Shown: positions 24,515 through 49,730 of the stretch, piece by piece
Layout: every line of letters starts with the position of its first letter
Position numbering within the stretch: the first letter of the stretch is position 1
Assembly: GCA_965178125.1 (NCBI GenBank)
Contig: OZ237738.1
Span: 186,001 to 250,000 of the forward strand
Direction: 5' to 3'
Length of the DNA: 64,000 nucleotides
Origin: Bilabrum cf. latius
Taxonomy: Eukaryota
Made by a program: the position numbers and the translations under genes
The notes under the pieces: generated by a model
What the model was told of the DNA's origin: nothing
Database searches by the model: none
The model's input: only the letters and a program-made list of their open reading frames with translations

Positions 24515-24624
24515 CGAACGGTGGTGTGCTTGAACGCTGAAGAGGACAGGAAATGAAACAGAGTGGGTCTTTCGTACAACCTCATCAGTATCCACGACAC
24601 CACGCCATGCTTTGCACCCGACAA

Positions 24625-29312: not shown

Positions 29313-32300
29313 TCATTTCCTGCTGCCCCGACCCTACTTCACCCCGCTGGCTCGCATCGCCTGCTGCCGCCGCGCCTGCGGCTACGCGCCGGCCGCGCGT
29401 CTGCGGCGCCCCGCCACGGGACCGCCGGACGCAGCTTGCGCCTGTGCCTGCGCGACCCTCTCCAGCTGCCTGGGCCCTAGCCCAGTTCCAAGGCCCGAGG
29501 GACTCTCCGTGCCGCTCCCAGTCCCGCCCCCGCCCACCGAACCGAAGCTGCTCGTCCTCGCCGGAGCAGGTGCTCGGGAAGGCAGCCGCTCCTCCAGACT
29601 CTCCGACAGGCCGCCACTCGTCACATCACCCCTTGCACTCCCACGGCTTTCTTCCGGTACCTGTCGCCGGCTAGACCCGCCTGGGATGCCCCGCCCCCCT
29701 GCCTGCGCGGGGGTGTCACCAGTGGCACTCGGACCGTCCTACGATGCAGCGGGGCCACTGTCACTGCGACTGCTGCCCCCGTCTGCTGCCCTTCTCCGGC
29801 TGCTCCTGTCTTGCGTGCTGCGTGGGGGTGACGAGTACGTCCCTTGGACTGAACCACTGGCAAGGTCTACCTGCAGCGATGGACGGGCGGTCTGATCGAT
29901 CTCCTCCCACACGTCGAGCTGCTCGTCGTCTGCATCCAGAGAAATCTGCCCCACGGTGCCTTGGCTCTCGGGTGCATCGAGGGGCCCAAGCAGACGAAAG
30001 TCACCGGAGCCCTCACGACTGCGCTACACAGACGGGGAGGAAGTGCCAGGCTTTTCTGATCCATCTGCTGCGTTCATGTGTCCGGTACGCCTCCCTCTTG
30101 ACCCCTGCCTGAGACTTGCTCCCGACCCGGCTGGCAGGGGCAGCCTAGAGGCAGGCACAGGCCCAGGCACCCTTGCGTTCAAGCCAGCCCTTGGCTCTCT
30201 CGATGCAGGCCGAGACGCACCCCGAGGAGAACTTGTGTTCGTGCTGTCTCTGTGCCCTGTCTTTGAGCTTGCAGCATGACCTGGGCCCGACATTGGTAAG
30301 CCCCTTGCAGTCCTCGCGGCGTAGGAGTGGCGCGAGCCAGTCCGTGCCATCCCGCGGTAGTCCCGTCCCCTGCCTCGCTCACTTCCATGGCCTGACCCAC
30401 GACCCCGCCCTGAGCCTCCACCCAGCCCTGAGCCTCCGCTGCTGCCACCCCTTGCACCACGACCAGCCACACTCCTCTCAGATAGTGCCGGGTGGCCCAC
30501 GTGGGTCCGCCTCCACAGCCTTGGATCCACCGTGCTCTCGGCAGCGTATGGCCGCGCCGGATCCTCCCATACATCCAGCGCGCGAGAACGAGATGCCTGC
30601 CCGTCCGGTTCTTGCCCTTGCCGCAGCCCATACTGTTCTGTTTGCTCTGATTCGACGACGCCGATTGGCATCAGCGCGACACCCGCAGCTTGCTGGCTAC
30701 GAGTCGCACCGCGCACATCTGTTTGCCTGGCAATTTCGCGTCTCGTGGGGGACGGTGGGTCCAATCCAGCAGCTTCCACTGCCAGCCGACCACTGGGGGC
30801 AGAGAGAGATGGGTCTCTGCGACTGGGGGCAGAGGAAGATGGGTCTCTGCGACTGGGGGCAGACAGAGATGGGTCTCTGCGACTGGGGGCAGAGATAGAT
30901 GGGTCTCTGCGACTGGGGGCAGAGGAAGAGGGGTCTCTGCGACTGGAGGATTGCGAAGGCCGCCGCCCGTTTCGAGAGGCGCGACCACCGCGCGACGCAG
31001 CATGCCGCTGATGTCTCAATCTTCGTCGGTTGCTTCTCGCAGATCGTCCAGGGGATGCCGTTGGATCAGGCATAGCTGCCTCGGCCGAGTTATGGTGCCT
31101 CGGGGACCCACTTGTTTGCTACACTTGAAGCACTCGTCGCTCACTCCTGCTCTTGCTACCGACCTTGCCGGGCCATCCTCTTCGGACAGACCCTCCTGCA
31201 TTCTCCTAGGACCCAAGGAATGTTGCCTCCAGGGAGGAGCGGGCATGGGAGTGGGGCTGTAGTCGCAAAGGCTGGGGTGCAGCGTGGCTGGACCGGGCGC
31301 CGGCAGAGCGACGTGCATCAACCTGGCTGCCCCGAGTGAGTCGGCTGCGGCCATCTGGGGGTGCGGTCTCCCGCGCGTCATTCTGCCTCGTGCTGTGCTT
31401 TGACAAGGTGCCAGTCCGTGTGCTCGATACATCGCCGGTGTTGCGTCGTGGTGCCATCTTCGGCAAGTGGCTACGCCTGGGCTTGGCAGCACTGGTCGCG
31501 TTAATACCTCCGTTTGGAGCGGGTCCTACGGATGCTGGCCGCCTCGATACCGGGGTTCGTCGGTCGGCTCGATGTTGATGCGACTGTCGTACGACTGGCT
31601 TGGGGTCAAGCGCATCCTTGAGCATATTCAGGCACGTGTCTCGGTCCACGAGATTGGGACACCGCTCAAGCCAGGCCAGCGAATCGCCCGAACCCCGAAT
31701 TTCAGTCCTCAAGTTTGGGATCACCTTCCCAAACACCGTGCGCAGAATCTGCCTTGCTACTCCCCTCTCTAACTTGGACGGCTCAATCGGCTGGAATAGG
31801 CAAAGCCTCTCAAAATTGGCGCTGCAGCAGACCCGCAGCTTCAGCCATGCAACCGACGGTCCCACGCGGCCGCACACCTGCCGCCGCTTGGCAGCCAGCT
31901 TCTTCTTACCTTTCTTCCCATCGGATGCCCTCTTCTTGTCTGACCCCCCTTTAGCAGCTGCTGCGGCTGAGGAAGAGGACGAGAGGTTGAGCGCTGGCAT
32001 GGCTCCCCTCACTGCCCCACCCTTGGCAGCCCCTAGACTTGGCGAGCGGTGCTTGTCGGAGCCCGCGCTACCCTGCCCACTGCGGCGCGACATGGGCTGC
32101 TTGCCAGTCATGTCCTCGTTTATCAGCCCCTGCAGCTATCTCTGCATGGACCTGTGCTTCTCGGCTTCTTTCTTGAAGCCAGAATCAGCCGACTCGCACA
32201 CTTGCACCAAGGCGTTGTGCAGCGTGGCCTGCACGCCGCGCATGCCGCAGCATTTGGCGAGGACCACACATTTCAGCAACAGCCTCCTCGCCATTGGCAT

Positions 32301-35300
32301 GTCTCCCAGATCAGCAAGCACCGCTCCGTGGAGCGCCATCGCCGATACAGTGCCCATGATGGACCGGCCCTGTCTGTGGAACACCCTAGCCGCGGCGGCC
32401 AGGTGTCGCTTAGCGCCATCAGCGTCCCCAACCCGCAGACTCACCAGTGCGCATGCACGCTTCACGCATGCTTCGGCAAAGGACATTTGAATCTGTCTCA
32501 ACCCCTGTGTGGCAGCTGCCAGCGGAGACTAGGCCTCGCCAGCTCCGCTGGAGGCTTGTAGGGTGGCAAGTTGGTACCGCGGTATGGCCAGTGGGCTGCC
32601 AGAATCAGGACCTGTGCCTGCCAGAACACCTCGCGCTGAGTCTGCCCTGCGAATCGCAGCTGATACAAATTCACCGCTAGTACCCTGTAGAGATCTTGTA
32701 GGGTGTGCCTGAGTGGTGCTGCGCCCAACACTCCTGAGTGGCGGGGGCGGTCCAGCTGAGGGGTCGCTTGGGCTCCCCTAGTCATCGGTTTCGGGAGGCG
32801 CAGGGTGGAGAACCTGATCTGGATCTCTGCACTTAGAACCATCGCTGCTGTCAGGCAAACCATCCAACTAAATAGACTGCACATCCCTGTGCTGCAGCCT
32901 TGATTCATGCACACTGTCGCTGGCTTCCTGCACGACAGCCATTGCCAACTGATGGTCATCCGTGCTCTCCCTCCGCAGCAGCAGCTCCGCAAACATGGCA
33001 CTGGATGTGAGAAAATGTTTTGCGGCGCGCCGGCAGGCTCTCCGCAGTCGTACAGAGTAGACCTTCGGCTACTACGGGCGAACATCTCCCAGTCCTCCCT
33101 CGCTGCTCCAGATTTTGCTTCCTGCCACAGAGCCCTCGTACGATCCACCGCCGGGGCTGCCCATGCGGGGGGCATCTGCAAGAGGCGACTCCTCAGGAGG
33201 GTCCTCGTCGCCAACCCACGATACTTCGCCGATCGCGCTGTCCGCTCGCTCGCTACCTGGGATCGACTGCACCATCGCTCCATCACTACTGTCCCCAGCA
33301 ATGCTCCGCGTAACACCCGCCCCGAGCTCAGACTCTTCGCCCCGGTAGGTACGCCGAGTTGGTGCACCGGAGTGCAGGCTGTGCAGGTCAATTCCAGTTT
33401 CGCCTGCCTCGGTGCGCTCGTCCAGCACCGTCATGCCGTCTAGTGTACGTCCACGGCGGCCACGGCCTGGTCGAGCCAGCCTATCAGCACGTGTTCGAGT
33501 CGCCTGTGGCTCGGAGCTGTCGTCACTGCCCTCTGATTCTGTACTAGAGTCTGATCCATGCGATCGCGTCTCATCGGACTGCTATCTTGCCATGCTACTT
33601 CCAACTTGCTGGGGCGTTGTCAAGCTGACTTCCCACACGCCAGTACCATTGGATATTCTTTGCTCTCGCGCTGCACCGTCTGATGGACCAGGTGCCTCCT
33701 GCCGCTCGTCTTGAAGCTCTCCTGTCTCCAGGACCTGCATCAGCCGCGCCAACTCGCGACCATAGCTAAAACACTGCAGCAGATTTCGCCGCTGCACCGC
33801 CAGCAAGGCGTCCGCTAGCTTCACCCCACGGAGGGCATCACTGTGCGTCTCGATTAGCTCGGGGCGGGAACTCATGGCCCCCTGCTTGCACTCGTCCAGT
33901 AGCCCAGCTGGCAGAAAGAGCGAGTCCTGGTACACGCTGGCCATGTGCTCTACGTGCAACCGCGCCCACAGCGATATACGAAGCAGCAGCTCGATTCGCA
34001 GCTGCTGCAAAGGAGCGATCGTGCTCGGAACATCCGTGGGGTACACCCGCAGGTGCCTGTAGAACCTTGTGAGTCTCTCCTAGCTCAGGTATCGATGCGA
34101 GATGCGACTCTTGCTGCGCACCGTCTTGACTTCGCTTGAGATGATGCCTGGCTGCTCCACAATGTCCCTCAGGTCACCCTCATCGCGGCATCGAGCCAGC
34201 ACTAGCTGGGCAGGTTCGCGCAGCAGCACGTCAGATCGCAAATCTGGCATGACGCCGCCATCTGTTGCCAAAGCAGCCGATGAATACGAGCCTGTAGCTG
34301 CCTCAACTGACGACATGCGGCGGCGGTCGCTCTCCACTGCGACAGGCGAGCTGGGGAGCTGGTCCGGGAACAGCCGGGCGGCCTCAACGCCCACGTCGCG
34401 CCGACTAGACTTGGCACCGAGTGGCTTTGACAAGCAAGACGCCCATCCCATGCACGCGCGATCGTCCGTGAACAACGAATAGTGTGTCAGGGTAGGCGAG
34501 CGCCTCGACTTTCGGGTTGAGCGCTGCCGGCTCAGATGTAGCTGGCGGGAGAGTTCGCTCCCTGCGGAGGCCACGCTGCTCTAGTCGTCTTCCCAGTGCA
34601 CAGACCGCCCCCGCGACATCCTCTCATCTGGCTCACTTTCGCTTTGCCCGCAGCCTTCATCAAACACTGCTTGCGCTTCTGGGTCGAGCCGATCGAGGCC
34701 TTGGTTGTGCATGCTAGCGAGAATGTAGCTGCCACCAAAGTCCGCGGAAGTCATAACCCGGCGACCCGCTGGGGCGGACGATGAATTGCCGCTGGCAACA
34801 TCATGCCCGTGCAATGGTTCGGAATAAATACCAGCCAGCATCTCACCCAATTGGCTTCCGTGTGACTGCGCCAGCCCATCAGAGCTAGGCAACCGATCTG
34901 TGAGGGAGCGGTGTGTCAAGTCTCCTTTTTTGTGCAAACCGTGCCTGTGGTGGCCACTCTTCTTTATGGTCCGCTGATCCCTTATTCTCATGATGTTCCT
35001 GACGTAGTGCTTGAGGAAACCCGCAGAATCGTGCAGCAAGCCTTTGGCCCGGTCTTTGCCAACGCAAAGCGACCTGTTTTTAAGCGATGCCAGAGCTGCA
35101 TTCAGCCTTCGGCGCGCATCTCGGGCTGATGCCCCCCTGCGCCCCGGAGCCCCAAAGCGAGGGAAATTCCCAGACCCCTCCGTGATGCCTGTCCACCCTG
35201 ATGCCTCTGAAACGCCCCCAATGCTCGCAGCTCGCTTCTAGGTTCCCGGTTGCAACCCATCTCTGTGCCCGCTCTCCCGCATGTCTACCGGGTCCTCATC

Positions 35301-38300
35301 AATCCCAGCAGAAAGCCCAATTCCCCTAGAATCATACGAGGCTACAGATTGAGCCCTCTACACAGCTGCCAGTGGTGTGGTATCGCCCTTCCGACCGGCT
35401 GCGGCGGACTGCGGAGGAGACGCAGCTGGCGAATCGGCGTACGCTTCAGCTCTTGGAGGGAATAGGAACACAGCAGCAGCTTCGGCGAACTAAAAGCCAT
35501 CGCCAAAAATGGCCTCCAAGTCGGAGGACAACAGACCGGCGGGAAGCAGACCAAGCAAGTGCACCAGAGCAACCGCGTCGGGGCTCGTGGCCGCGAGTGA
35601 AACAAGGTGGGTGTTCATGGAGACCAGCATCATGGTGTCTCTGTCCGCAATAGGAGGCTCTGGAGGAGAAGCCACCAGCCCAATGCAAAGCCCAGTCGCA
35701 GACGATTCTCCCTCATCGCTAGTGTCAGAGGTTTCTGACTTCTCTCGGTGCATGGTAGACGGGCCACCGAGGTAAAGACCTCCCGTGCCGGCTGCTTCTG
35801 CAAATGCAACCATGGCCGGATGTCGCCCGAGCTCACCCCCTCCGAGATCACCCACCCTGGTCGTGCCTCGCAGCAGCGGCGGACCATCCTCGTCATCGTT
35901 CAGATCCGACCGCTCTGCAGCCGCCCGCATCGCTGCCTCGAAGTCGTCGAGCGAGAAAGAGGGATTGCTCAGGACTTGAGCCAGCTCCAAGATGCGCATG
36001 GGACTGCAGTCCATACATATCTTGGATATCCTGCGACCCAGCACCGCAAAACGCCTCGCTGTGCTTAGAGTCCTAAAATCCGAATCAGTTGCCTTCAGGA
36101 CCTCAAACAGAACATCATCGCCGCGGGAGCAGGCATTGCGCATGAGCCTGCCGGCAGCTTCATGACTAATCCCTTTCAGCTGTCTTGTGGATTCTGACAG
36201 CCCAGATGGTAGAGACATACTAACCTTCAGGCTCTCGGCACCTGACAGTGCTATTCTTGATAGTGGGTCCAGTCTCCTGTGCAACCTGGCGAGCATTTCC
36301 CGAAGCTGATGAGGCGCCGCGCTCTGCACCAAGCCTACGTCAACCAGGACTAGCAGGACCTTTCTATTCTTAAGGATCTAACAAATCAGCGAAAACAACT
36401 GCTGCTCCTAGTGCTATCCAGCTCGTTTCGGCTGGTCGATGGATGCAGGAGTATGGTGCTTTGTTGCATTCAGGTGTCGTCCATTCGAAGTCTCGACCAG
36501 GCTGTGCCGTCTGGATCCAGCGGATTCCTCGAGCCGTCCCACGATTCGAGAGCCGCCCGAAATGGACCGGCCACCAGCGGACATGACCGAGGAAGCCTCG
36601 CCAAAAGCTTTGGATTCCAGGTCGCCTATGCTGAGTGGCCTATCGTTCGGCTATTCGAAGAACCAGCTTTGCACCACGGGATCCTCATCTGGTGGGTTCT
36701 CGGGATCAGCAGCCTCCACCCCTTCCCCCTTGGGGTCCGCGGGGGCCCTGTGGTAGTCGCTGGAGCTAGACTCGCGGTTTGACTCGGTGTGCTTCCTTGG
36801 GGATTGCCGCAGCATCGACTCGTAGTGCCGCGTGCTGATTCCAAGTTTGCGGACGAGAGACAGACCGCTCCTTCCGCCTGCCGCTCGCACGATCCCGGTC
36901 CACAGCCTGCCCACCATCTGCGGGGCGCTTCGACAGCCCCTGCAATTCACCGTGATAACACCGTCGCTGAAGGGCATGTAGTCACATCGCGACACGACGT
37001 ACTTTGCCAGCTCAAGAAGCAAGGACGTCTTGCCGGATCCGGGCCACCCGGTGAGGGTCACTGTGTCAGATTTCTTCAGGTGGGCCATAAGCATGAGGAG
37101 ATCCTTCTCTCGCCCAACCAGGTCACGGCGGACGGGCTACACCCTGTAGAAGAGTGCTCGTGGGCGCAGCCGCTCCACGTGTACCTGGCACACGGGGTTG
37201 CCTTTAGCACCTGCGCCGCCAGTACCCTGTGGCCTCGACCTCGCCGATGTTGCGCTGAACAAGACCTAATCGGCCACGGACCCCAGCTCAGTAGACGGCT
37301 CCAGCTTGATCGCTTCTATACGGTCTCCACTTCGGCGCGACACAAATAGCAAGAACTGGCAATCGGACGGGGTATCATCTTGCACTCGCAGCGCGGCGGC
37401 TTCGAATGCCTCCCTCACCGTCCGTCCCTAGAAGAGTAGCTCATACATCTCGCGGACAAACTGCGTGCACATGGTGTCAGACACGCTGCTTTCTCGCGGG
37501 ACCGAGATTGCCATCTCGGCTGCTCCAGTCTGCACCAGTGCTCTAGCGGTATCTTCGCCGTGGCAGCAGGACACGAATGCGAGCTGGACTGGTGGCGGGC
37601 CTCTGGCGGCCTCGCCTGCAGTCGCAGCCACAGCCGCAGCCGCAGCCAAGCCGGCACCACCTTGGGCGACCATCCCGTCAGCTCTAACGTTGTCACTTTT
37701 TTGCCTGGTACTACTACTAGTACTCCGTTTTGGCCGAAGAGGTAACTTTGGAGCCAGCTGGGGCGGGCGCCCCGCGCTCAGGCTTTGCATCATGCTTGCT
37801 GCAGCCAGCAGAGCGCTACTGCTGCGCGGCGCCGGACCTCGGTCTGCTGCAACCGGCGCGCTGCTATGACCCGGATCTGCTGCCCGTGCTTGCTCTGGAT
37901 CCCTCGCACTGGCTCGCGCTTGGGGGTCCTCCAGGAGATGCACTGGGGTGCCGCCCGCAGCAGGGCCTGCCGAACTGCCAGTGGGCGCAGTCGCTCCAGC
38001 CTGAGGGCGTCGACCAGCTGAGCCCAAAGATGCATCGCTAGATGACTGGAATGAGCTCTAACGCAACGCCAAGTCTGCATCTGCTGACGAGTATCCCGAG
38101 ACATCCCTCTCGATGCCGTCGCCCCGCTCGCTTAAATCCGATGCTGGGACGGACCCACAACCAGATTGCTATCTCTTCAACCGCATTTCGTCTTGGTTGT
38201 GCCAGCCAATTCGATTCTATTTGGCTCGGTATACAAGCTCTGCGATGCCTGACTTGCCGACAGCGTCGGATCTGCCAGCAAACTCTCGTCTCTCTAGCAA

Positions 38301-38702
38301 CAGCATTGCCTCTCGTGGCTGCATGCCTGGCGGTTGGCCATGTCCGGTAATATGCAGAATCTTAGCCCCTTTAGCTAGAGCTTGGTGCAAGGTAGACTTT
38401 GTCGCGTTGCACACCAGCATTCGCACTCTTTCAAACGCCGAAAGCTATGCACTCCTTGAGATCGCGTCCCGCTCAAGATCGTGCCGAAGACGAGGCAAAG
38501 GCTGGTCTGAGCTACCGAATGACAATGGAGCAGCAACGAGGAAGGCTATGTCATATTCCCGTGGTACCTCTCCCGGCCCTGTTTCACTGGCCTAGTCTTT
38601 GGACGCCTTCTTTGCAGCCATTCCAGCCAGCATCTTCATGGCTTCTTCGATGCCACCCGCCATTTCTATGAATTTATTCATTTCATCCCCTTTGTCGGAC
38701 AT
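29313..38702 (-). CDS. Giant (about 3100 aa) CHAT (caspase-like) + STAND/NB-ARC-like P-loop NTPase + TPR-like protein; possible in-frame intron 31877-31791
   Basis: Thirteen track ORFs in one frame separated only by TAG (about 30). CHAT motifs IAFLVAAPL, ILHITGHG, LLLE, LAFVSCCHG, FVREMYELLF*GRTVREAF. NTPase LVGREKDL, Walker A GWPGSGKT, Walker B-like KVLLVLVD. TPR-like helices about 32470-32200. Ends TGA 29313-29315. Confidence 0.8.
30790..30945 (-). repeat. 30-nt tandem repeat, about 5 copies, encoding SRRDPSxSAP in the CHAT-STAND protein tail
   Basis: gggtctctgcgactgggggcaga.. recurs at exact 30-nt spacing (30811, 30841, 30871, 30901, 30931). Confidence 0.9.
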
Positions 38703-38806
38703 GTTCACACAATCAAATGTGCTGGGGGAGGCGGGACGCGCTGGTAGGCGGGGCGCTCCGAATCGACGTTCTCGACATGTGTTCGTTCGTTACAGTGCGG
38801 CGTCCA

Positions 38807-39322
38807 ATGGCCGCAGTAGCCTCGGACGAATGGAAATTGTCGTTTATATAGTCCTCGGGGGAAACTTTCAGCAAAGGGGGCACTCTACAGCTTAGCAAGG
38901 ACAGCTTTGCAGTGCAGCCACACGAAGGCAACGCATTCGAACTAGAGTACTCAAGCATTGTGATGGTAGCTACCAGTAGTGACCCAAGTCTTACGGAATC
39001 TGCATGTATTTACATGCAGTGCAACGGCTCGCTGGCGGCCACAAGGGCCGGTGATGCTACTGAGACCAACGAAGTCATTCTGCAGCCGTCCGAGCCCAGC
39101 ACTCTGGAGGAACTCTACAAGCGTCTGTCCGAAAGGGCTGAATCCCACGCGCCCGGAAGTGCTGATGAAAGTGAAGAAGGACAAAGTGCGGAACGCGGGG
39201 GATTGGGCGGCATTTTGTCTGTGATGGCAGAATTCGAGAAGCTCAAGGCTGAAGCTGAGACTGGCGATCCCGCGGCCGCTGCTGTTCCATCTACAGGCAG
39301 CGTTGAAGACGAAGAAGGCTAA
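38807..39322 (+). CDS. ICln/CLNS1A-like methylosome subunit (Voldacs domain), 171 aa
   Basis: MAAVASDEWKLSFI*SSGETFSKGGTLQL..FELEYSSIVMVATSSD..CIYMQC..EVILQPSEPSTLEELYKRLSE follows the ICln pattern with an acidic tail. One TAG; ends EDEEG-TAA. Confidence 0.7.
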
Positions 39323-39380
39323 TCGTACAATAGACCAAATCATTCCCTGCAGCCATTTCACCGAGTCGATTGCCGTCTCG

Positions 39381-41567
39381 TCAATCGAATAATCCGCCAC
39401 CGTCGTCCCCACCAATCCCGAGACCGAGAGGATCGTCGGCTTCCGAGGCGCCCGGGCTGCTGTCGGTGCCAGCGGTGCCTGGAAGAGGAGGCGGCCCAGC
39501 AGATGCTCCCTCCTAATCGCCTGAATCTCCGAACAAGTCCATGCTAGGCGGCACGGAACCGCCACCCCCGGCCTCCGTGGCTGGTGGCACCCCACTGGCA
39601 CTGGCATCCTCCGCGAACATATCCAAGGGGGGCGGGCCTGCACCCTCCCCATCCTCCCCATCACCCATCCCATCTCCGAATAGATCAGGCGGCACTTGGC
39701 CTGTTCCGTCGCCGTCGCCGTCCTCGCCCCCGTCTGCGCTGCCAAACAAGGGAGGTGGCTCAGAGCCCAAGCCCTCGTCGCCAAACAGGGAAGCTGGCTC
39801 GGGGGCCGGGACTGGAGCTGGAGCTGGCTCGGGGGCCGGAGCTGGAGCTGGAGCAGGAGCAGGAGCTGGCTCGGGGGCCGGAGCTGGAGCTGGAGCTGGA
39901 GCTGGCTCGGGGGCCGGAGCAGGAGCTGGCTCGGGGGCCGGGGCTGGAGCTGGAGCTGGCTCGGGGGCCGGAGCTGGAGCTGGAGCTGGCTCGGGGGCCG
40001 GGGCCGGAGCTGGAGCTGGCTCGGGGGCCGGAGCTGGAGCTGGCTCGGGGGCCGGAGCTGGAGCTGGAGCAGGAGCTGGAGCTGGCTCGGGGGCCGGAGC
40101 TGGAGCTGGCTCGGGGGCCGGGGCTGGAGCTGGAGCTGGCTCGGGGGCCGGAGCTGGAGCTGGAGCTGGCTCGGGGGCCGGAGCTGGAGCTGGAGCAGGA
40201 GCAGGAGCTGGCTCGGGGGCCGGAGCTGGAGCTGGAGCTGGAGCTGGCTCGGGGGCTTGGGCTTCCTCGCCCGACGCCTTCGACTTTGCTTTCCCCTTTC
40301 CCTTACCCTTTCCTTTGCCTTTCCCCTTGACTGCCCCGGTACGACCATGCTGCAAGATGGCTTTGTTTAGGCTGCCCACAAATCCCTGAGACATACCACT
40401 CGGCGCCACTGCTCCGCTAGCCCCTCCCCCTGCCCCTGCTCCTGCCCCTGCGCTAGCGCCTGACTTGGCAGCCGACCGCCCGCTGCGGCTGCTCACTGAA
40501 GCGGCCCCCGCAGCAGTCTGCGAGTGCAAATTCGCCACCCCCATCGACGTCTTGGTCATCTGCACGCCCGTGAGCTGGGTCAGCAGCGCCTGCTCGACCG
40601 CCTCCACCAGCCCGCCCATCGCTGCCAGGTGAGAAGGGCGCCCGCCCTCGGGGACCACGACCGTCTTGCGACCCTTCTTTGTTCCCTGGCACCCGATCCT
40701 GGCCTGTCCCAGCGCCTGCGATGTGCCCTGCGACTGCACCAGCACGGTGGAGGTGGCCGTGTAGGTCCACTTGCGACCACCTTCCGCCACCGCGGGCACC
40801 GCTTCCACCACGTTGCAGACATCCCAGGTGGCCTCGCCGTTTACACCGGCTCCTTCTTCCGAGACGCCCATAGCTGCAGCCGACGCCGAAGCTGCAGATC
40901 TGCTCGCTTTCTTGGAGACGAGCCACGCGGAGTTGAAGGCGTCCCCGTCGCCCTCCCAGAAATACACCGAGGTGACCCCGGCGCCGCCGTAGTACCTGTG
41001 AGGTGCATCGAAAGGAGTGATGCATGCAAATTACAGTGCTATACTCTGCAGGACGCGACGATCCCGAAGGTGGGTCTTCAATGGGACAGACCGGGCCCAC
41101 TCACAATCGACCATAGATGGCATACAGTTCGTTGGCTTCCAACTCCAGCGCCCGCAGCTTGCTGCCAGGTTTGTACGGTGGCTCTTCGCCGTCCTCAGTA
41201 GGAACTGGGGGGCAGTACTCGTTACTCCACGGGGATCTGCGACGAGCATTTGATCTAGGCAGCACAGGATCCTACCAGTTTCGCTATTGCTGGTATGAAT
41301 GGAACGGTGCAGTGCAGGATGGCTGTGTCGGTCTCACCTGTAACTATCTAGTTCTTGATTGTAGTTGCAGCCGATAAACTTCTTGTCTTTGGCTTTGTCC
41401 TCTACCACCGTGGGCGGCCTCGCAACATCGTCCAAGAGGTCATCTTCCAGATCAGGCACCGCTGCAGACAACTTCGCGACGTCGTCGCTGACATCCCATA
41501 GAGGCATCCGCTTCAGCAAAGACAGAGCAGCTGCGCGCCTTGCTTCATGCCCTCCAGCTGCAGCCAT
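39381..41567 (-). CDS. CAPZB: F-actin capping protein beta subunit with long C-terminal extension; exons 41567-41338, 41236-41105, 40995-39381
   Basis: Spliced ALSLLKRMP..DLEDDLL..CNYNQELDSYRSPWSNEY..LRALELEANELY..YYGGAGVTSVYFWE..HLAAMGGLVEAVE. One TAG (39513-39515) before the TGA at 39381-39383. Confidence 0.88.
39795..40255 (-). repeat. Pro-Ala(-Glu) coding minisatellite, (PAPAPE)-like units of 24-42 nt, in the CapZ-beta tail
   Basis: ggagct/ggctcgggggcc units repeated over about 460 nt. Confidence 0.92.
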
Positions 41568-41848: not shown

Positions 41849-43226
41849 ATGTTGCGACGCGTAGGATCAGCACTTAGGCAAGTTTCGCTGGGTGCGCGAG
41901 TCTCCTCGAACGTGAGCATGTTCACCTTCTAGTGGCGTCGTTTTGCCAAGGCACCCTGGCTCCGAATCGCATATTCTCTCGCTGCCAATGCAAGACGATG
42001 TCGCGAGAGTATGCGCTGAGGCGACTTGTTGTATCTTGGGTTACAGTATCATAGCGTACCTCGATTTCTCTCGCAGCGCTCCGTAGCTATGAACTTTGCG
42101 CGGGCTGCCAGCGGATAGGCCACGTCTATGACTCTTCGCGACGCAATCAACACCGCGATTGATGAGGAAATGGAAAAAGATGATAAAGTGTTCATTATGG
42201 GTGAGAAGATCGCTTTGACGGTGCGACTTAGAGTTTAGCCTCCGGCCAGAGCATCCTCACCATTGCCCCGTCGCGAATCCGTATCCGCAAACGAACGCAG
42301 GTGAAGAGGTAGCGCAATATCAGGGAGCTTACAAGGTGACAAAGGGTCTCTGGCAGAAATGGGGCGATGATCGCGTGATTGACACGCCAATCACAGAAAT
42401 GGGCTTCGCCGGGATCGGGGTTGGAGCAGCCATGGGCGGCTTGAAGCCGATCGTGGAGTTCATGACTTTCAACTTTTCCATGCAAGCGATTGACTAGATT
42501 GTAAACTCTGCTGCGAAGCAGTTGTACATGAGTGCCGGCGACATCAACGTGCCAGTCGTGTTCCGAGGCCCCAACGGCCCGGCCGCGGGTGTGGCTGCCC
42601 AGCACTCCCAGTGCTTCGCCGCGTGGTATTCTAGCGTCCCGGGCCTGAAGGTGGTCGCGCCCTACTCGAGCGAGGATGCCCGCGGCCTGCTGAAGGCTGC
42701 CATCCGTGACCCGAACCCCGTGGTTGTGCTGGAGCACGAGCTCATGTACGGCGTGGAGATGGAGGTGAGCGCGGAGGCGCTGGACAAGGACTTCGTGATC
42801 CCCTTCGGGAAGGCCAAGATCGAGACGGAAGGCGCTGACGTTACCATCACCGCGTTCTCCCGAGCCGTCGGCAACGCCATCGAGGCAGCCAAGCAGCTGG
42901 AGGCCAAGGGGATCAGCGCCGAGGTGATCAACCTGCGGTCCATCCGCCCCTTGGACAGGGAGACCATCATCGAGAGCGTCAAGAAGACCACCAGGCTGGT
43001 CACCGTGGAGGAGGGCTGGCCCCAGTGCGGCATAGGCGCGGAGATCGCCGCGGTGGTGGCCGAGTCGGACGCCTTCGACTACCTGGACGCGCCCCCGGAG
43101 AGGGTCACTGGGGTGGACGTGCCCATGCCGTACGCCGCCAACCTCGAGAAGTCGGCCCTGCCTCAGGTGGAGAACATCGTGTCCGCGGCGGAGCGGGCTT
43201 GCTACAGGAGCAAGAAGGGGCAGTGA
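41849..43226 (+). CDS. PDHB: Pyruvate dehydrogenase E1 beta subunit, mitochondrial; exons 41849-41911, 42077-42200, 42301-43226
   Basis: Presequence [81 protein letters not shown] 42495-42497 in the conserved core; ends TGA. Confidence 0.97.
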
Positions 43227-43453: not shown

Positions 43454-44668
43454 TCACCACTGGTCCCTGAGTTTCCTCATAGCACCCAGCACCACAACCG
43501 GATCCTCCCAGTCCCACCCGGCAGGCTCCCCCCTCTCGTCCCCTCGAAGCGTTCCAATGGCCTTCGCCCTCACCGCCTCTTTCACCCTTGTCTCCCTGCA
43601 CCGCAAGAATGGATTCACCTGCTTTTCCCTCCCGAGGGCCGACGGGACGGTGGGCAGCGGGACCGTCTGGTTCACTGCGTCCCCTTCCGAAGAGGTCTGC
43701 GCGAGCTCCGAGTTCTGGGCTCCCCCAGCGGGCGCTCGCAGCTCGCTGACCTCGTCCAGCCGCCGCTTCACCGCCTAGTTCCCCGGCTCCAGCCACGCCG
43801 CAAACCTTGCGTTCGTCAGGGTGTACTCGTGCCCGCAGCACAGCAGGACGGTGTCGGGAAGGGCAGCGATTCGATCGGCGTTCTTGAGCATGTCCTTGGC
43901 AGTGCCCTCAAAGAACCGGCCGCACCCCTGGCTGAAGAGAACGTCGCCTGCCAGCAGACAGCCGTGCCTCTGCACATCACGCACGATGATGGAGGGCATG
44001 GGGGCCCCTGAGCGGTGGTGCGGGCCGGTGGCAGACGGAACAGTGGCCGAGATGCCTTGCCCCAGGTCTAGTGTTGGGTCGGCTCGTGCAGTCCCGGCCT
44101 GCCCCGCGATCGGGTCGTCCAGAGAGCTATCCTGCTGCACGGCAGGGGGCAGATAGAATGCAACGTGACCGCGCGTGTGGCACGGCATCTCCCATACCTC
44201 CAGCTCCGCCCCCCCGACTCGAACAAAGTCACCCTCCTCAACTTGTCGCGTGCATCCTTCGACAGCCTCACCAAGGGGCCCGACTATTTCTTTGATTCCA
44301 AGCAGTTGCGAGACCTCATTGTTGCCTCCTGCGTGGTCCCAGTGTTTGTGCGTTGTCCAGAGCTGCGTAGTCTCGATGAAGCCCTCTTTGAGAAGCCCCT
44401 ATGCTACTTCGACCATAACCGATGGTTGCGCTGCATCAGTCATAGTAGCCTCTTGGTTCGCTTCATCGACTAAAACGAAAGAATAGTTGTCTTCTAGGAT
44501 CTAATACGCTTCCAGGCGCAAGCTTGGACACACCCGAGTGTTCGCGACGCCATGCCACGCGCTTTGCCTTGTGGCTGCCAGCTACCGCGCCCTTGGCCGT
44601 GTGGCGGCTGCCAGCTATCTTGGCAGAACTCGACTTCTAATAAACCGATTAAGACTCTAGCACCTCAT
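43454..44668 (-). CDS. gloB: Hydroxyacylglutathione hydrolase (glyoxalase II), likely mitochondrial, 404 aa
   Basis: LEDNYSF, THKHWDHAGGN, PCHTRGH, GDVLFSQGCGRFFEG, CGHEYT, PTVPSALGREKQVNPFLR. Arg-rich acid-free presequence MRC*SLNRFIRSRVLPR*LAAATRPRAR*LAATRQ. Six TAGs; ends TGA. Confidence 0.93.
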
Positions 44669-44824: not shown

Positions 44825-47800
44825 TCAAAGCCTGCCCTCGTATCGGTCCGATGCCCCGAAACGATACCTGGCGTCATGCCGCGCGTGCTCCCACCGCAGC
44901 TGGCGCGCACCAGCTGCACCACCACCCGACCTGCCCACAGCACCCCCCGGCCCTGCCGCCCCAAGGACGCCAGCTCCGCCTCGAGACCCCGGCCTAGACC
45001 CAGCCCCGCCCACTGCCAGTGACTGCACCAGAGGCCCACTGCCCCACTCCCTCGACCTCGCCACTGCCGCCCGCTGCCTCCTCATCCTCTGCATCAGCTG
45101 ACGGTGCGACAGCCCCCGCTGCACCGTGCTGCCCCCTCCGGGAAGGCTCAGCCCAGGACCGACCTCTGGCTCGGTCCCTGCCCTTTGCTCCTCCGAAATG
45201 AATCTTTTTCCCGTGGTGCTGCCAGGCGGCACCGGCCTCCGCGACCCAGACCCGGCGGGTCCCGCGTGCCCATCGACCGGACCCTAGGAGCGGTGGGAGG
45301 CGGCGCCAAGCCTTCTCACCATCACTGGGTCCTGGGCCCCCACCCCGAGCCCAAGCTAGCCCCTCCTACCTCGCTGCTCGGTCCCGGAGGAGAAATGCAA
45401 GTGCGACCCGGTGCTTGCACTGGCAGCCCCAGAGGCAGCCGCTGGATCAAGGGTCGCTTCGAACCGGCTCTGGCTGGAACCACCGAGGTACTCGGATGGA
45501 ACTCGGTGCCGCGACCCCCGGGGCCCGCTCGCCGTCGCGCTCCTCCTGCCCTCCTGCCAGCTGGATCTCCTGCGCAGTGGCACGTATGTCTCCCCGCGGG
45601 CCACGCGCGTGTCTGCTCCCCGCGCCGACAGGGGTGCAGCGGCCCCCGGCTCCTCTCGTCCCTGTCGCTGAAGCTGTCGCTCGCCGCGGCGCAAATGCAG
45701 CGGTACGTGATCCCCGGTTCCGGTGGGATGCAAGCGAGCGGCGCGAGCCCTAGCACGGCCCTGGAAGAGTGCACTGCCTTGCTGCGGCGCAGCGCTCGAC
45801 CCGCTCGAGCCTCCGTTCACGTACGCCAGCACCCTCGATTTTGGAGAGAGTGCGCCGTGGACGGGGGTGACCAGGGGAGGCACGATGGGGCTGCCGGGGG
45901 GCGGGTCGGCGCCAAAGGCCGCGCGGACGGATGCAGCGCTTCCTGCAGATGCGTGCCCCGCGATGGGAGGCGGGTGCGCTACCAGTGCCTCCGCCCGCCT
46001 AGCGCCCGCGAGGGCAGCATCAGTGGCCGAGGGCGCCAGCTCACCCAGACCGAGAGGGTTGTGCGTGCGGACCGCCTCGGGGTCCGCCATTCCAGTCTCA
46101 AGAGCTACGGGAGCACCGCTGGAGTCGGACGCTGCGTCGCCCGTGCTACCGCTGGACAGCTCTGAGGTTGACAACTGCGCGCCGCTGCCACCTCGGGTGT
46201 CCTGCATGGTTCCGCTGCCGCTACGCAGCCGCACGCGAGCTGCTGGACCCTGGCCGTGCTTTGCCCGTCCGCTGGGAGGCCTGCTGCTCGCATGCGATCC
46301 ACTCGACTCTGCGATGCCCCCGTGCGCCACGAGCTCATGCGTGGGGCTGTTGCTAGGCGTCTGCCACGCCACCATGCCCACCCCGCGGCGGGACACGCTG
46401 CCCGGACTAGAGTTTCGGCTGCCGGCCTGAGTGGACGGCGCACTCGTGCCGTGCGGGCGGTCCTCCGCATCGCTTCCTCTGCAATGCTCGCTCGACGCGC
46501 GCCCCCTGCGTCGCTTGCTTTCAGAGGACAGCAGCTTCCCGCGAGCAGCTGCCCGGCGTACGGCTTCGTCGGACCCGGCGATTCCGGTCGAGAATCCTTC
46601 TTTCTTTCCGGAGGAGCTGGTCTTGCGAGTCTTCTTGGAGGATGGTGACAACGCAGCGGCAGCCTGTTCCTGATCATGCTCGGCCTGCACCTGCACCAAG
46701 ATGGCCTCCTCGGGGGCACCCCGCGCCACGGCTGCCAGCGCCACGAGCAGCTCATCCGACAACGGGTCTGGCTCCTCGTCCGCCGCCCAACGCGCCTGCG
46801 CCAGCCCCTGCTTCCCCGGCGAGGAGGCCATGGCAAGGTCATTTGGGAGCGGGCTGGCGGTGCGGATAGGCCCGCCACCTGTGGTGGCTCGACCGGGAGG
46901 CGGGGTGCTGGGCGGCGAGGGCTCAAGTCGAATCGGACTGTCTCGCGAGGCATCGGCTGCCTCGTCCAGGACTTGGGCAGCAAGCGAAGGGGTGCCAACC
47001 ACGCTCGAAGCGCCCACCCCGCTGCATGCAACGGAGCCAGTCACACGATCGGTAGCGCCTTTGCCGCCGCCACCACCGCCATCTTCTTCTTCTTCTTCAT
47101 CTACCTCTCCCTCGTCCTCCCCTTGACTGTTCACCGTGGCATCGTCTTCTTCGCCTGCCTCGGCAGCATCAAGATCGTCCAGTCCAACGGCGGGCGAAGA
47201 TGCCCCTGCTTCACCACTGTCACATGCAAGCAGCGCAGAACTGTTAAATCCGTCGTCTGCGTCTCCACTGACCGGGCCACGGGATGTCGCGGCACCGTTT
47301 CCCGCACCGGACAGCTGCAGCAGCGCCCTGTCAACCGCTGCCATGGCCCGCTCGGCCGCCGCATCCAAGTCCATGGATCGGTACTCTGCCTCCTCTGCCT
47401 CCTTCATCTTGCGATCAGAGCCAGCGCTGGCCCTGTGGCCTTCGCCACTGGGCGAGCCTTGCGGAGAAGGCCGAGCGCGGGAAGCAACTAGGCCCTTGCT
47501 CAAATCGTCCGTGCCTTGGTACGCGCGACTGCTTCCAACCTCTGGAGACTCAGGGGAAGAACGGCGATGGAGATCCTCCCGGCTGCCCGATGCTGCCCCG
47601 CTCCTTCCATGGCTAGCACCAGCTGCATCGCTTCTCAAGTTGGATCTCGACGCAGACGGCTCAAGGCCTGAACGGCCAGGCGACCGCGGCAGCTGTCCTC
47701 GTCTCCGCTGGGCGCGGCGCAGTGCAGGCTTCCATCTCGACAGCCACAGCTCCAGCAACACGTTGAAGAAGCGCTGTTGCGCAAAATACTTGCTATAGGT

Positions 47801-49588
47801 CCCCTCTCTCGCCGTCCTCTGCGTGGGGTAGATCCTGTCAAAGTGCCCCCGCCGTGCGTGCTCGTCCTCCAAGTCGCATATGGCCGCGATCTCCTCCGGG
47901 AGCAAGTCACCCGGGCCCAAGTCATACAGCTGGTCAGCTGATCGGTGCCTGCGGCCCGATGTCATCAAGAGAGAGCTGGCAGATGTGGCCGCCTTGGAAC
48001 CTGGGCCCGCAGTACCAGTGGCAGATGCCGCTACAGCCTTGCGCTGCATACCCACGGCCTTCCACCGCTGCTGGCTCCACCGCTGCTCGGCTCGATGCAG
48101 CGCTACGGGGTCGTACGGCACAAATCCCACGAGGTGGAACGTATCGGTCAGCAGCGCGTTCTTAATCTTCTTGTCTAGTGGCGAGCTGGAGGACAGAGAG
48201 GGCGACACGTTCACCTCGATGAGGTAGGCCCGCAGCGTCCTGGTCACGAGCACGTCGAACCCGAACAGCTCGAAGCAAGGGGTGCCCGCAGACAGCTCGT
48301 CCGTGCGGTTCTGGAAGCAGCGCGTGCTCTAGGAAGCCACGTCATCCTCGCACGTGAGCAGCGTCTTGATCACGACGTCTTGGATGCGTCCCATGAGAGC
48401 GCGCGTGTCCACACCCTCGGAGTGCAGGTGCCGCAGGAGTGCACTAAGGCTCCACTTGCTCCCGGCTCCGTCGTTCTGAGCGTCCTGGTTCTTCTTGAAG
48501 TCCCCAGACTTCTTGTTGACGGAGTAGTTGGTCAGGTGAGCGAACCTGTCTTTGAGCGCACTCCCGCCCTTGGTGGAATACTCGCTGGTGGCGAACCGTA
48601 CCAGGCCCTGCAAAACAGTATCTAGCATCGGGCAAAGCTACACCAAGCTGAAGGAACGCTGGAGCATGCCACTATGGGTGGAGAACTACCGCCGCAAGGT
48701 ACGTGGCAAGCGAGCAATGCAGGGACAGACTGTCTCACCTCTCGGAACATGTACACCCTCAAGGGGTGAAAGGAAGTCACCAGAACGTACAGCCTCAGGT
48801 CGAACTTCCTCTTGTTGATGAGCAGCGGGTTAGCGATGTACCGCTGGGCCACGAGCTTGCTGTCGGGGCCCGGCAGCGCCTTCTTGACCCCGCCCATCGA
48901 GGCGCTGCACACGAGCCTGATCCCTCGCCCGCAGGATGATGAGGGCGGCTTCAGGATCCAGATGGATCTCGGGTCGCGCTCCATCTCGGCCTTGAGTTTC
49001 TCCCTCTCGCCAGGAAGAATGTAGGCCGGCGCGGAGATGGAGAGCTCCTGGCCGAACTTGCGGACCATCCTTCCGACCCCGCGAGCGAGCCTATCCTTCC
49101 TCCCTATGGCACCGGTACCAGGAAAATGGTTCACTTTCTAGTACGGGTTTAATCGCTGGTACTGCTCTGGCTTTAGCGGTTTCGTCCACAGGAGGCTCGG
49201 CCTGGGCCCTCCGGTCCGCGCAAAGCCAGCGCGAAGCAATGCATTCCGCACGGAATTATACTCGTGCACGCGCTCGATTTTGAATGTTGGTCTTTTTCTA
49301 GTGACTGCTGGGAGACGTAGCACCTTGCCAACTGCGACTCAGACGATAGTGAAGGGGATTCAGCGTGTTATTGCTACAGATCGTTCTCTGAACCACCAGA
49401 CTATCGTCCAGCTTACCTGTTCGCTTAATTCCCATCCATGCTGGATAATCTACGAGCACAGTGGGCTTTCTGTGCAGAAACTGTCCCACAACAACCTTGA
49501 CCTGGCGTGCAGGTCGCTCGGTCTTTTTTGCGAGCTATTTGGTTCGTGCAATCGGTTCGACGGATCCATCAGCAGACGCAGCAGACAT
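44825..49588 (-). CDS. Tubulin polyglutamylase TTLL4/5-like with long disordered C-terminus; exons 49588-49417, 49331-48739, 48607-44825
   Basis: Y*KVNHFPGTGAIGRKDRL, WILKPPSSSCGRGI, QRYIANPLLINKRKFDLRLYV, HLTNYSVNK, CFELFGFDVLV, LIEVNVSPSL. Five TAGs; ends TGA 44825-44827. Confidence 0.92.
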
Positions 49589-49730
49589 ACTTGCTCAAGC
49601 TCTTGTTGCTTTTAGTCAATCATCGCTCAGGAGGCCTTGGAAGTGCAAAATGGCGTCGCGTTGCAGTTGCGACCGCCGCCGCCAACGGCTCGTTGGGTGC
49701 GACCTCCAGCAATCCATTGCAAATATCGCA

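What the first reader, a model, noticed from the sequence alone, without database searches (positions are those of the whole stretch)
39320..39322. UAA apparently remains a stop, so UAG and UAA are decoupled
Seen: no in-frame TAA in about 55 kb of coding sequence although CAA is used. Three frames end at TAA exactly where the gene should end: ICln after EDEEG (39320-39322, 58 nt before the convergent CapZ-beta stop), kinesin (20325-20327, followed by AT-richer DNA) and the orphan (24512-24514, 110 nt before the GDT1 stop). The other 11 complete genes end in TGA. Inference: eRF1 must recognise UAA and UGA but not UAG, and the decoding tRNA should have a CUA rather than UUA anticodon.
Basis: partly seen in the sequence, partly recalled or inferred. 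Interest (0 to 1): 0.8.

Follow-up and report, generated by a model that had tools for sequence, protein, structure and literature searches.

The report
UAG codes glutamine; UAA still stops
This GC-rich eukaryotic genome piece reads the stop codon UAG as glutamine but still ends genes at UAA and UGA, a rare split of the two codons that is already known from a few other protists and here probably marks a further lineage.

Summary
With gene models refined by spliced contigs, 18,807 in-frame codons hold 119 TAG, 0 TAA and 0 TGA. TAA occurs 75 times in the other two frames of the same DNA. About 30 in-frame TAA would be expected if TAA were a synonym of TAG (P about 1e-12; 9e-7 with the most cautious ratio).

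Three genes end at TAA and eleven at TGA. Reading through TAA would add 241 non-coding-like codons to the kinesin and 335 antisense codons to ICln.

TAG means glutamine. It falls on the conserved Gln of PDH-E1beta. Close relatives carry Q at 5 of 6 comparable sites. Spliced contigs keep TAG unedited. A metagenome relative with 63% protein identity also reads TAG as sense.

The code is therefore UAG=Gln with UAA and UGA as stops. This kind is published for Iotanema spirale and some ciliates, so the decoupling itself is not new.

New, if anything, are the lineage and the stop usage. The lineage is aerobic, 60-70% GC, and neither a ciliate nor a fornicate. Its main stop is UGA, not UAA.

The tRNA(CUA) and eRF1 inferences could not be tested, because no genome is held.

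The parts
38807..39322 (+). ICln-like gene (Voldacs domain) that ends at TAA 39320-39322. It has one in-frame TAG at 38849-38851.
   Evidence: Pfam PF03517, E 1.3e-10. Stop and context. Read-through would run 335 codons to a TGA at 40328, antisense to CapZ-beta. One contig of run X8 covers 38802-39325 without a difference.
11904..20327 (+). CENP-E-like kinesin of 2,807 codons with 21 in-frame TAG. It ends at TAA 20325-20327.
   Evidence: Pfam Kinesin, E 3.9e-84. PDB CENP-E motor, E 5e-50. The next in-frame TGA lies 241 codons on. The extension holds another TAA at +15 and scores as non-coding: -0.16 against +0.11 for the last 241 codons of the gene, and GC3 0.53, close to the 0.54 of the other two frames.
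21050..24514 (+). Orphan ORF of 1,154 codons with 7 in-frame TAG. It ends at TAA 24512-24514.
   Evidence: no Pfam family. The next in-frame TGA is only 13 codons on, so this end is ambiguous by itself.
42089..43226 (+). Pyruvate dehydrogenase E1 beta: last two exons, with intron 42200-42299. The TAG at 42495-42497 lies on a conserved Gln. A second TAG is at 42116-42118. The stop is TGA 43224-43226.
   Evidence: PDB human PDHB, E 5.5e-131, with X aligned to the Q of QAIDQ. The column is Q in 11 and H in 2 of 13 homologues, and Q in the 96%-identical P0002. Spliced contigs of X6-X8 keep TAG.
29313..38702 (-). CHAT/AAA protein of 3,129 codons with 30 in-frame TAG. It ends at TGA 29313-29315. The TAGs at 35490-35492 and 35358-35360 are Q in a relative.
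   Evidence: P0121 (86% identical over 206 aligned positions) has Q at both sites, and its sequence ends one residue before our TAG of codon 1155.
24625..25938 (-). GDT1 cation antiporter with intron 25432-25587 and 3 coding TAG. The stop is TGA 24625-24627.
   Evidence: Pfam GDT1, E 1.4e-45. Joint 25431/25588 appears in X6, X7 and X8 but not in X1. Spliced translation. TAGs covered unedited.
39381..41567 (-). CapZ-beta (F-actin capping beta) with a long PAPAPE-repeat tail. Introns are 40994-41102 and 41237-41337. The stop is TGA 39381-39383, convergent with ICln.
   Evidence: Pfam F_actin_cap_B. Joints. The spliced translation gives a full N-terminus.
58152..59627 (-). BNR/sialidase-like gene without TAG, ending at TGA. 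It served as the reference for the TAG sites of relative L001.
   Evidence: Pfam BNR_2. Its orthologue in L001 is 63-64% identical and has in-frame TAGs aligned to our Q, Q and R.
2..9421 (-). PX-domain protein. The frame is open over 3,140 codons, with 15 TAG and no TAA or TGA. It runs off the window.
49650..58007 (+). RCC1-repeat protein of 2,785 codons with 13 TAG. The stop is TGA 58005-58007.
   Evidence: The orthologous C-terminus in L001 also ends at TGA.
43454..44668 (-). Hydroxyacylglutathione hydrolase (glyoxalase II) with 6 TAG. The stop is TGA 43454-43456, where its homologues also end.
44825..48667 (-). Tubulin-tyrosine-ligase family protein (last exon) with 4 TAG. The stop is TGA.
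26235..29153 (-). DUF3626 protein with 8 TAG, the last one 9 codons before the TGA stop.
59764..60330 (-). Last exon of a 14-3-3 gene. The stop is TGA 59764-59766.
11409..11612 (+). Second exon of SelR/MsrB. The stop is TGA 11610-11612.

Best explanation
The window is nuclear DNA of a GC-rich, aerobic, intron-bearing eukaryote. Its cytoplasmic translation reads UAG as glutamine and keeps UAA and UGA as the only stops. This is the code once listed as NCBI table 15, and it is documented for Iotanema spirale and a few ciliates.

Shown here:
- UAG is a common sense codon, about 13% of all Gln codons.
- UAG sits where relatives have Gln.
- UAG is present unedited in spliced transcripts.
- UAA never occurs in frame, and it closes 3 of 14 complete genes.
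- UGA closes the other 11.

Inferred, not shown:
- UAG is decoded by a tRNA-Gln with anticodon CUA. That anticodon cannot pair with UAA, which is why UAA could stay a stop.
- eRF1 has lost or weakened recognition of the G in UAG while still reading UAA and UGA.

The trait is shared by at least one fairly distant relative (63% protein identity). It therefore belongs to a clade rather than to one strain.
For: TAG is a sense codon. Frames of 2,785-3,140 codons are open only if TAG is read. They carry Pfam domains on both sides of TAG codons.

TAG means Gln.
- PDH-E1beta has TAG on the Q of QAIDQ. That column is Q in 11 of 13 homologues and H in 2, and it is Q in the 96%-identical P0002.
- Two CHAT TAGs are Q in the 86%-identical fragment P0121.
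- In the orthologous BNR gene of L001, the three alignable in-frame TAGs face our CAR-encoded Q and Q and an R.
- In a HAGH alignment of 24 homologues, Q is the commonest residue (8 of 24) at one TAG column.

There is no RNA editing. Contigs of runs X6-X8 are spliced at GT..AG introns that DNA run X1 lacks. They keep TAG at both PDHB sites and all three GDT1 sites, with 0 other letters.

TAA is a stop.
- There are 0 in-frame TAA in 18,807 codons, against 15-33 expected.
- There are 75 TAA in the other two frames.
- Three genes have TAA as first stop. Read-through would add 241 non-coding-like codons to the kinesin and 335 antisense codons to ICln.
- One X8 contig covers ICln from 38802 to 39325 and holds the TAA. 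Its end 3 nt past the TAA is only a weak hint.

The same code type, and the tRNA and eRF1 logic, are in print (PMC5304391, abstract and sections 7 and 9 read; PMC11687900, abstract and Discussion read).
Against: - Only 64 kb and 14 complete gene ends were examined, so nothing here is genome-wide.
- None of the three TAA ends is fixed by a conserved C-terminus. The homology-supported ends (PDHB, HAGH, BNR) are all TGA.
- The orphan's TAA is followed by a TGA only 13 codons later, so it decides nothing.
- One TAG of HAGH lies on a nearly invariant proline (P in 23 of 24 homologues). One L001 TAG faces R. The kinesin TAG lies in a variable column (K or S).
- No tRNA gene and no eRF1 gene could be inspected.
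- There is no peptide evidence.
Confidence: 0.85

Rival explanations
1. This is the ordinary UAR=Gln code (NCBI table 6). TAA is also glutamine and is merely rare because the genome is GC-rich. The three TAA ends are then coincidences, with the true stop at the next TGA.
For: The genome is 58-72% GC, and A-ending codons are the minority (A share 0.11-0.22). The orphan could run 13 codons further to a TGA.
Against: There are 0 TAA against 119 TAG, where 15-33 TAA are expected (P 9e-7 to 2e-13). In the CHAT gene alone there are 39 CAA to 78 CAG and 30 TAG, yet no TAA. Read-through would give the kinesin 241 codons that score as non-coding and hold a second TAA. It would give ICln 335 codons antisense to CapZ-beta.
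Confidence: 0.03
2. UAA has a context-dependent double meaning. It is a stop near mRNA 3' ends and a rare sense codon inside genes, as in Blastocrithidia nonstop or Condylostoma. It is simply too rare internally to appear in 64 kb.
For: Such codes exist (listings and abstracts of PMC12152300, PMC12153298 and PMC4967479). 3' UTRs here may be very short: contigs of X6-X8 covering GDT1 end 42-60 nt past its stop.
Against: No internal TAA occurs in 18,807 codons, although TAG is used 119 times.
Confidence: 0.07
3. UAG is not fully reassigned. It is glutamine inside genes but still stops translation at some 3' ends. UAG, UAA and UGA would then all terminate, and the decoupling would be only partial.
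For: Two genes have a TAG 7 and 9 codons before their TGA stop (CHAT and DUF3626). A stop there could not be told from read-through with these data.
Against: No complete gene needs TAG as its end. The ends fixed by homology (PDHB, HAGH, BNR) are TGA and are not preceded by a nearby TAG. TAGs lie throughout genes, including between conserved domains.
Confidence: 0.05

Closest known systems
Iotanema spirale (Fornicata) nuclear code: UAG=Gln, UAA and UGA stops (Panek et al. 2017, PMC5304391)
   Same: The assignment is the same: UAG glutamine, UAA and UGA terminators, no in-frame UAA. The inferred mechanism is the same too: a tRNA-Gln(CUA) and an altered eRF1.
   Different: Iotanema ends 104 of 119 scrutinised complete genes at UAA and 15 at UGA (section 7). 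Here the ratio is 3 UAA to 11 UGA. Iotanema is an anaerobe for whose lineage a passage of PMC9161772 reports no evidence of the pyruvate dehydrogenase complex (the antecedent was read from a cut passage). This window encodes a mitochondrial-type PDH-E1beta and is 58-72% GC.
Ciliates with UAG=Gln only: Hartmannula sinica, Trochilia petrani, Protocruzia tuzeti (McGowan et al. 2024, PMC11687900)
   Same: UAG is reassigned to Gln alone and UAA is kept as a stop.
   Different: In the five phyllopharyngean genomes with reassigned UAG (to Gln or Leu), UAA is the stop of 86.9-98.3% of genes and UGA is the rarest. Phyllopharyngean GC is 27-54% (Discussion). Here UGA dominates and GC is higher. The genes lie densely on a contig of at least 64 kb and have 100-165 nt GT..AG introns. 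PDHB does not group with ciliate sequences among the named hits.
Rhizarian exLh and TARA phyllopharyngean ciliates (UAG=Leu); Scotinosphaera (UAG=Ser)
   Same: UAG alone is reassigned and UAA is retained as a stop.
   Different: The amino acid differs. Here the aligned residues are Q, not L or S. Scotinosphaera is known to me only from the Discussion of PMC11687900.
NCBI table 6 organisms (UAA and UAG = Gln: many ciliates, hexamitin diplomonads, some ulvophytes, Streblomastix, Amoeboaphelidium)
   Same: UAG is read as glutamine.
   Different: In those organisms UAA is also glutamine and UGA is the sole stop. Here UAA is never in frame and ends genes.
Code 15 phages (TAG=Gln; crAss-like, Lak and others)
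   Same: The codon table is formally the same.
   Different: Those are bacteriophage genomes translated by bacterial ribosomes with RF1 and RF2. This is a spliced eukaryotic nuclear genome. Known to me from the abstract listing of PMC9523058.

Membership tests
UAG=Gln-only nuclear code (UAA and UGA stops; 'table 15' type) | Many in-frame UAG codons inside bona fide protein-coding genes | tested here: met
   119 TAG in 18,807 codons spread over 13 genes or exons, with Pfam domains on both sides.
UAG=Gln-only nuclear code (UAA and UGA stops; 'table 15' type) | UAG positions correspond to glutamine in homologues | tested here: met
   Close relatives show Q at 5 of 6 comparable sites and R at 1. 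The conserved PDHB column is Q in 11 of 13. One contrary site exists: a HAGH TAG on a proline column, P in 23 of 24.
UAG=Gln-only nuclear code (UAA and UGA stops; 'table 15' type) | UAA absent in frame and used as a terminator | tested here: met
   0 of 18,807 codons, against 15-33 expected. 3 of 14 complete genes end at TAA. This holds for the window only, not genome-wide.
UAG=Gln-only nuclear code (UAA and UGA stops; 'table 15' type) | UGA absent in frame and used as a terminator | tested here: met
   0 in-frame TGA. 11 of 14 complete genes end at TGA, three of them where homologues end.
UAG=Gln-only nuclear code (UAA and UGA stops; 'table 15' type) | UAG never serves as a terminator | tested here: inconclusive
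   No gene needs TAG as its end, but TAGs lie 7 and 9 codons before the TGA of two genes.
UAG=Gln-only nuclear code (UAA and UGA stops; 'table 15' type) | A tRNA-Gln with anticodon CUA, and no tRNA with anticodon UUA | not testable with these tools
   No tRNA gene in the window (ARAGORN; Rfam). No genome is held.
UAG=Gln-only nuclear code (UAA and UGA stops; 'table 15' type) | eRF1 N-domain changed at residues that read the third-position G (for example the GTS motif) | not testable with these tools
   No eRF1 gene is in the window. Sequences from outside the session cannot be used as queries.
UAR=Gln code (NCBI table 6) | In-frame UAA at glutamine positions, with UGA the only stop | tested here: not met
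   No in-frame TAA. TAA closes ICln and the kinesin, and read-through there gives nonsense.
Ambiguous stop/sense codes (Condylostoma, Blastocrithidia type) | The same codon is sense inside genes and a stop at gene ends | tested here: not met
   TAA is terminal only and TAG is internal only in this window. Rare exceptions elsewhere in the genome cannot be excluded.

The most novel reading that the evidence does not exclude
This is an independent, so far undescribed origin of the UAG-to-glutamine-only code. It lies in a GC-rich, aerobic clade that is neither ciliate nor fornicate, with at least two species 63% identical in one protein.

UGA, not UAA, is the main stop here. That differs from the published UAG-only cases whose stop usage I read (Iotanema and the phyllopharyngean ciliates). 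In those cases heavy use of UAA is invoked to explain why UAA stayed a stop.

In a genome of 60-70% GC, UAG should not have been driven out by mutation pressure either. Loss of UAG by AT-biased codon capture is therefore unlikely. UAA was kept as a stop although few genes depend on it.
Probability: 0.5. Interest if true: 0.7.

Novelty: new member of a known kind. Interest (0 to 1): 0.55.

Why it matters
Changes of the nuclear genetic code are rare outside ciliates. Cases where UAG and UAA part company were unknown before 2017 and are still few.

Each new lineage tests the rules proposed for them. UAG can be captured alone by a CUA-anticodon tRNA. UAA is then said to stay 'locked' as a stop because most genes use it.

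Here UAA is the minority stop (3 of 14) in a GC-rich genome. If the pattern holds genome-wide, the locking argument and the AT-pressure codon-capture route do not explain it. The case would become a useful contrast.

There is also a practical side. Standard-code gene callers cut this organism's proteins at every TAG. Database entries from it and its relatives will be fragments, as the short fragments P0121 and P0122 of a 3,129-codon gene suggest.

Tried and rejected
- **Whole genome:** none is held, so there was no genome-wide tally, tRNA scan or eRF1 check.
- **Earlier notes of this scan:** none exist for this genome. A word look-up and a sequence look-up gave only unrelated phage and bacterial notes.
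- **tRNA and RNA families:** ARAGORN found nothing in the window. Rfam found nothing in the window or at 25900-26300.
- **More DNA from relatives:** Scans of genome contigs with the BNR alignment and with 14-3-3, and of viral contigs, gave nothing useful. L002 is an unrelated 38% match.
- **Sequencing runs:** no RNA holder is listed on record. The runs laid are contigs, so transcript ends, strand and expression level cannot be read from them. The kinesin TAA site lay outside the stretch laid. No listed contig of X6-X8 covered the orphan's TAA, and this says nothing either way.
- **Lineage placement:**
  - A FastTree of 118 PDHB hits plus the window put it with unnamed metagenome proteins, a contig of a Symbiodinium sp. 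KB8 assembly and one EukProt record, then loosely with Cafeteria and Chara. P0001 and P0009 were left out.
  - HAGH best hits are 30-40% identical and taxonomically scattered: Cyanophora, a heterolobosean, Alphamonas, red algae.
  - The species behind the EukProt record with prefix GECG could not be found.
  - The lineage stays unresolved.
- **ICln against solved structures:** only a weak pICln match (E 0.044), which does not help to fix the C-terminus.
- **Relatives of the CHAT gene:** the search for shorter fragments was swamped by low-complexity words. Only 2 hits came from 8,000 scored candidates.
- **Literature:** four full-text searches found no report of this code in a GC-rich non-ciliate lineage. 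Subscription journals and supplements were not searchable.
- **Rejected readings:**
  - RNA editing of UAG to CAG is excluded, because spliced contigs keep TAG.
  - TAG as Leu or Ser is excluded by the aligned residues.
  - The ORFs 42228-43415(-) and 59725-60468(+), which also end in TAA, are antisense shadows of PDHB and of 14-3-3/BNR. They were not counted.

Full report
**What the window is**

The 64-kb window is 58-72% GC. It holds no tRNA gene and no Rfam family.

Read with the standard code, its long genes fall into pieces. With TAG read as a residue, frames of 3,140, 3,129, 2,807, 2,785, 1,280 and 1,154 codons open.

Pfam identifies these genes:
- a PX-domain protein
- SelR/MsrB
- a kinesin whose motor is closest to CENP-E among solved structures
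- GDT1
- a DUF3626 protein
- a CHAT/AAA protein
- an ICln-like protein
- CapZ-beta
- glyoxalase II (HAGH)
- a TTL-family protein
- an RCC1-repeat protein
- a BNR/sialidase-like protein
- a Zn2Cys6 protein

Stop-to-stop frames added pyruvate dehydrogenase E1 beta at 42089-43226 (PDB human PDHB E 5.5e-131). They also added a 14-3-3 gene and the second SelR exon.

No whole genome is held for the window. This scan has no earlier notes on it.

**Gene models from public runs**

Ten listed runs hold at least part of the stretch searched, and none is on record as RNA. I laid four of them on 24400-44399.

Contigs of X6, X7 and X8 join across five stretches that the DNA run X1 does not skip. Each has GT..AG ends on the gene's strand:
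- 25432-25587 in GDT1
- 40994-41102 and 41237-41337 in CapZ-beta
- 42200-42299 in PDHB
- 41912-42076 in PDHB, seen in X7 only

These are spliced molecules, so this is a spliceosomal eukaryote. The joints fix the models of three genes. The spliced translations give a complete CapZ-beta N-terminus, a PDHB presequence and a clean GDT1. One TAG that I first counted in GDT1 lies in its intron.

**The observation**

- ICln ends at TAA 39320-39322, 58 nt before the convergent CapZ-beta stop.
- The kinesin ends at TAA 20325-20327, and GC drops downstream.
- The orphan ends at TAA 24512-24514, 110 nt before the GDT1 stop.
- Eleven other complete genes end at TGA.

The first tally gave 18,569 codons with 121 TAG and no TAA or TGA. 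The refined tally gave 18,807 codons with 119 TAG, 0 TAA, 0 TGA, 159 CAA and 632 CAG. The refined CapZ-beta model includes two codons upstream of its ATG.

TAA is present in the DNA. It occurs 75 times in the other two frames of the same coding sequence and 57 times in the 8.3 kb outside the first models.

If TAA were a synonym of TAG with the A/G ratio of CAR, AAR or GAR, 30-33 in-frame TAA are expected (P of none 2e-13 to 2.5e-12). With the lowest ratio, that of TTR, 14.8 are expected (P 9e-7).

The argument is not circular. A sense codon used at that rate would break the 3,000-codon frames when treated as a stop, exactly as TAG does. TAA does not break them.

**What happens if TAA is read through**

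- The kinesin frame runs 241 more codons to a TGA at 21051. It crosses another TAA at +15. The stretch has GC3 0.53, close to the 0.54 of its other two frames. Its codon-usage score is -0.16, against +0.11 for the last 241 codons of the gene.
- ICln would gain 335 codons that are the antisense of the CapZ-beta tail.
- The orphan would gain only 13 codons, so it is uninformative.

One X8 contig covers ICln from 38802 to 39325 without a difference and contains both its TAG and its TAA. Its end 3 nt after the TAA is at best a weak hint, since contigs do not show ends.

A real weakness remains. None of the three TAA ends is pinned by a conserved C-terminus. The ends that homologues do pin (PDHB, HAGH, BNR) are all TGA.

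**What TAG encodes**

| Site | Result |
|---|---|
| PDHB, TAG 42495-42497 | On the Q of QAIDQ(I/V)(I/V)NSAAK |
| Same column in 13 homologues | Q in 11, H in 2; Q in P0002, 96% identical and called with the standard code |
| CHAT codons 1071 and 1115 | Q in P0121, an 86%-identical fragment; P0121 ends one residue before our TAG at codon 1155 |
| BNR orthologue in L001 | Three alignable TAGs face our Q, Q and R; one more lies in an insertion and one before the start |
| HAGH, one TAG column | Q is the plurality, 8 of 24 |
| HAGH, another TAG column | Nearly invariant proline, 23 of 24 |
| Kinesin TAG | Variable column |

L001 is a 2,386-nt metagenome contig of about 55% GC. It carries the BNR orthologue (63-64% identical) and the tail of the RCC1 gene in the same convergent order. 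Both genes end at TGA.

Taken together, close relatives give Q at 5 of 6 sites. Glutamine is the only assignment that fits. Leucine and serine, the other published meanings of a lone UAG, do not fit.

RNA editing is excluded. The spliced contigs keep TAG at both PDHB sites and all three GDT1 sites.

**Mechanism**

Shown: UAG is sense (Gln); UAA and UGA are stops.

Inferred from established decoding rules, as argued by Panek et al. (section 9): only an anticodon CUA reads UAG without reading UAA. A tRNA-Gln(CUA) is therefore expected, most simply derived from tRNA-Gln(CUG). eRF1 should also have lost affinity for UAG; Iotanema has a T32G change in the GTS motif. Neither could be examined here.

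**Comparison with what is known**

The decoupling of UAG and UAA was first reported in 2017, for Iotanema spirale (UAG=Gln) and a rhizarian (UAG=Leu) (PMC5304391; abstract and sections 7 and 9 read). It has since been reported for Hartmannula sinica, Trochilia petrani and Protocruzia tuzeti (Gln), for uncultivated ciliates (Leu) and for Scotinosphaera (Ser) (PMC11687900; abstract and Discussion read). So the kind is known.

This window is unlikely to come from any of those:
- It encodes a mitochondrial-type PDH-E1beta. A passage of PMC9161772 reports no evidence of the pyruvate dehydrogenase complex in the lineage of Iotanema (the antecedent was read from a cut passage).
- Its GC content, its dense genes on a contig of at least 64 kb and its 100-165 nt introns do not fit the ciliates described. 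That paper gives 27-54% GC for Phyllopharyngea.

I could not place the lineage. In a PDHB tree it groups with unnamed metagenome proteins, a contig in a Symbiodinium sp. KB8 assembly and one EukProt record. HAGH hits are scattered.

Four full-text searches found no report of this code in such an organism. Subscription journals and supplements were out of reach.

One respect differs from the published cases whose stop usage I read. UAA is the main stop there: 104 of 119 complete genes in Iotanema and 87-98% of genes in the ciliates. Here it closes 3 of 14 genes and UGA closes 11. With 14 genes this is only suggestive.

**Verdict**

The feature is a real variant nuclear genetic code of a known type. 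It is probably in a lineage not yet described as having it, and it is shared by at least one distant relative.

It is a new member of a known kind, not a new principle. The genome-wide test, the tRNA and eRF1 remain to be done.

Noticed in passing
window 26050-26165 (between GDT1 and the DUF3626 gene): A stretch of about 110 nt has far higher depth than its surroundings. In the DNA run X1, per-place depths reach 3,287-25,359 against about 100 in most other bins. Depth is also raised in X6-X8. Several variant letters and contig breaks occur at 26084, 26099 and 26196. It looks like a multi-copy dispersed element or a small RNA gene. It occurs once in the window and has no Rfam match.
   Followed up: partly
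window 39800-40260 (CapZ-beta tail, minus strand): CapZ-beta carries a C-terminal extension of about 150 residues made of PAPAPAPE-type repeats, followed by an acidic, glycine-rich tail. Contigs of all runs break in this repeat, so its length in the assembly may be unreliable.
   Followed up: no
window 38802-39325, 24565-24627, 43226-43408: Untranslated regions may be very short. The one listed contig over ICln starts 5 nt before the likely ATG (38807) and ends 3 nt after the TAA. Contigs of X6-X8 covering GDT1 end 42-60 nt past its stop, and those covering PDHB end 128-182 nt past its stop. Contigs do not prove ends.
   Followed up: partly
window 44503-44505 (HAGH codon 56, minus strand): A TAG codon sits on a proline that is present in 23 of 24 glyoxalase II homologues, just before the DNY motif. 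Either this enzyme tolerates Gln there, or this site deserves a look for something other than plain Gln decoding.
   Followed up: partly
window 29334-29336 and 26262-26264: The last TAG of the CHAT gene lies 7 codons before its TGA stop, and that of the DUF3626 gene lies 9 codons before its stop. Whether TAG so close to the 3' end is still read through was not testable.
   Followed up: no
L001 1-2386: The metagenome relative keeps the convergent RCC1/BNR gene order and the TAG-sense code at only about 55% GC. The code is therefore not tied to the very high GC of the window's genome.
   Followed up: partly
window 37073-37739: Depth rises sharply in all four runs (2,828 in X1, 531-748 in X6-X8) over an alanine- and glycine-rich GC-rich part of the CHAT gene. 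At the 88% likeness threshold used, this is most likely foreign or paralogous low-complexity contigs and not a copy-number feature.
   Followed up: no
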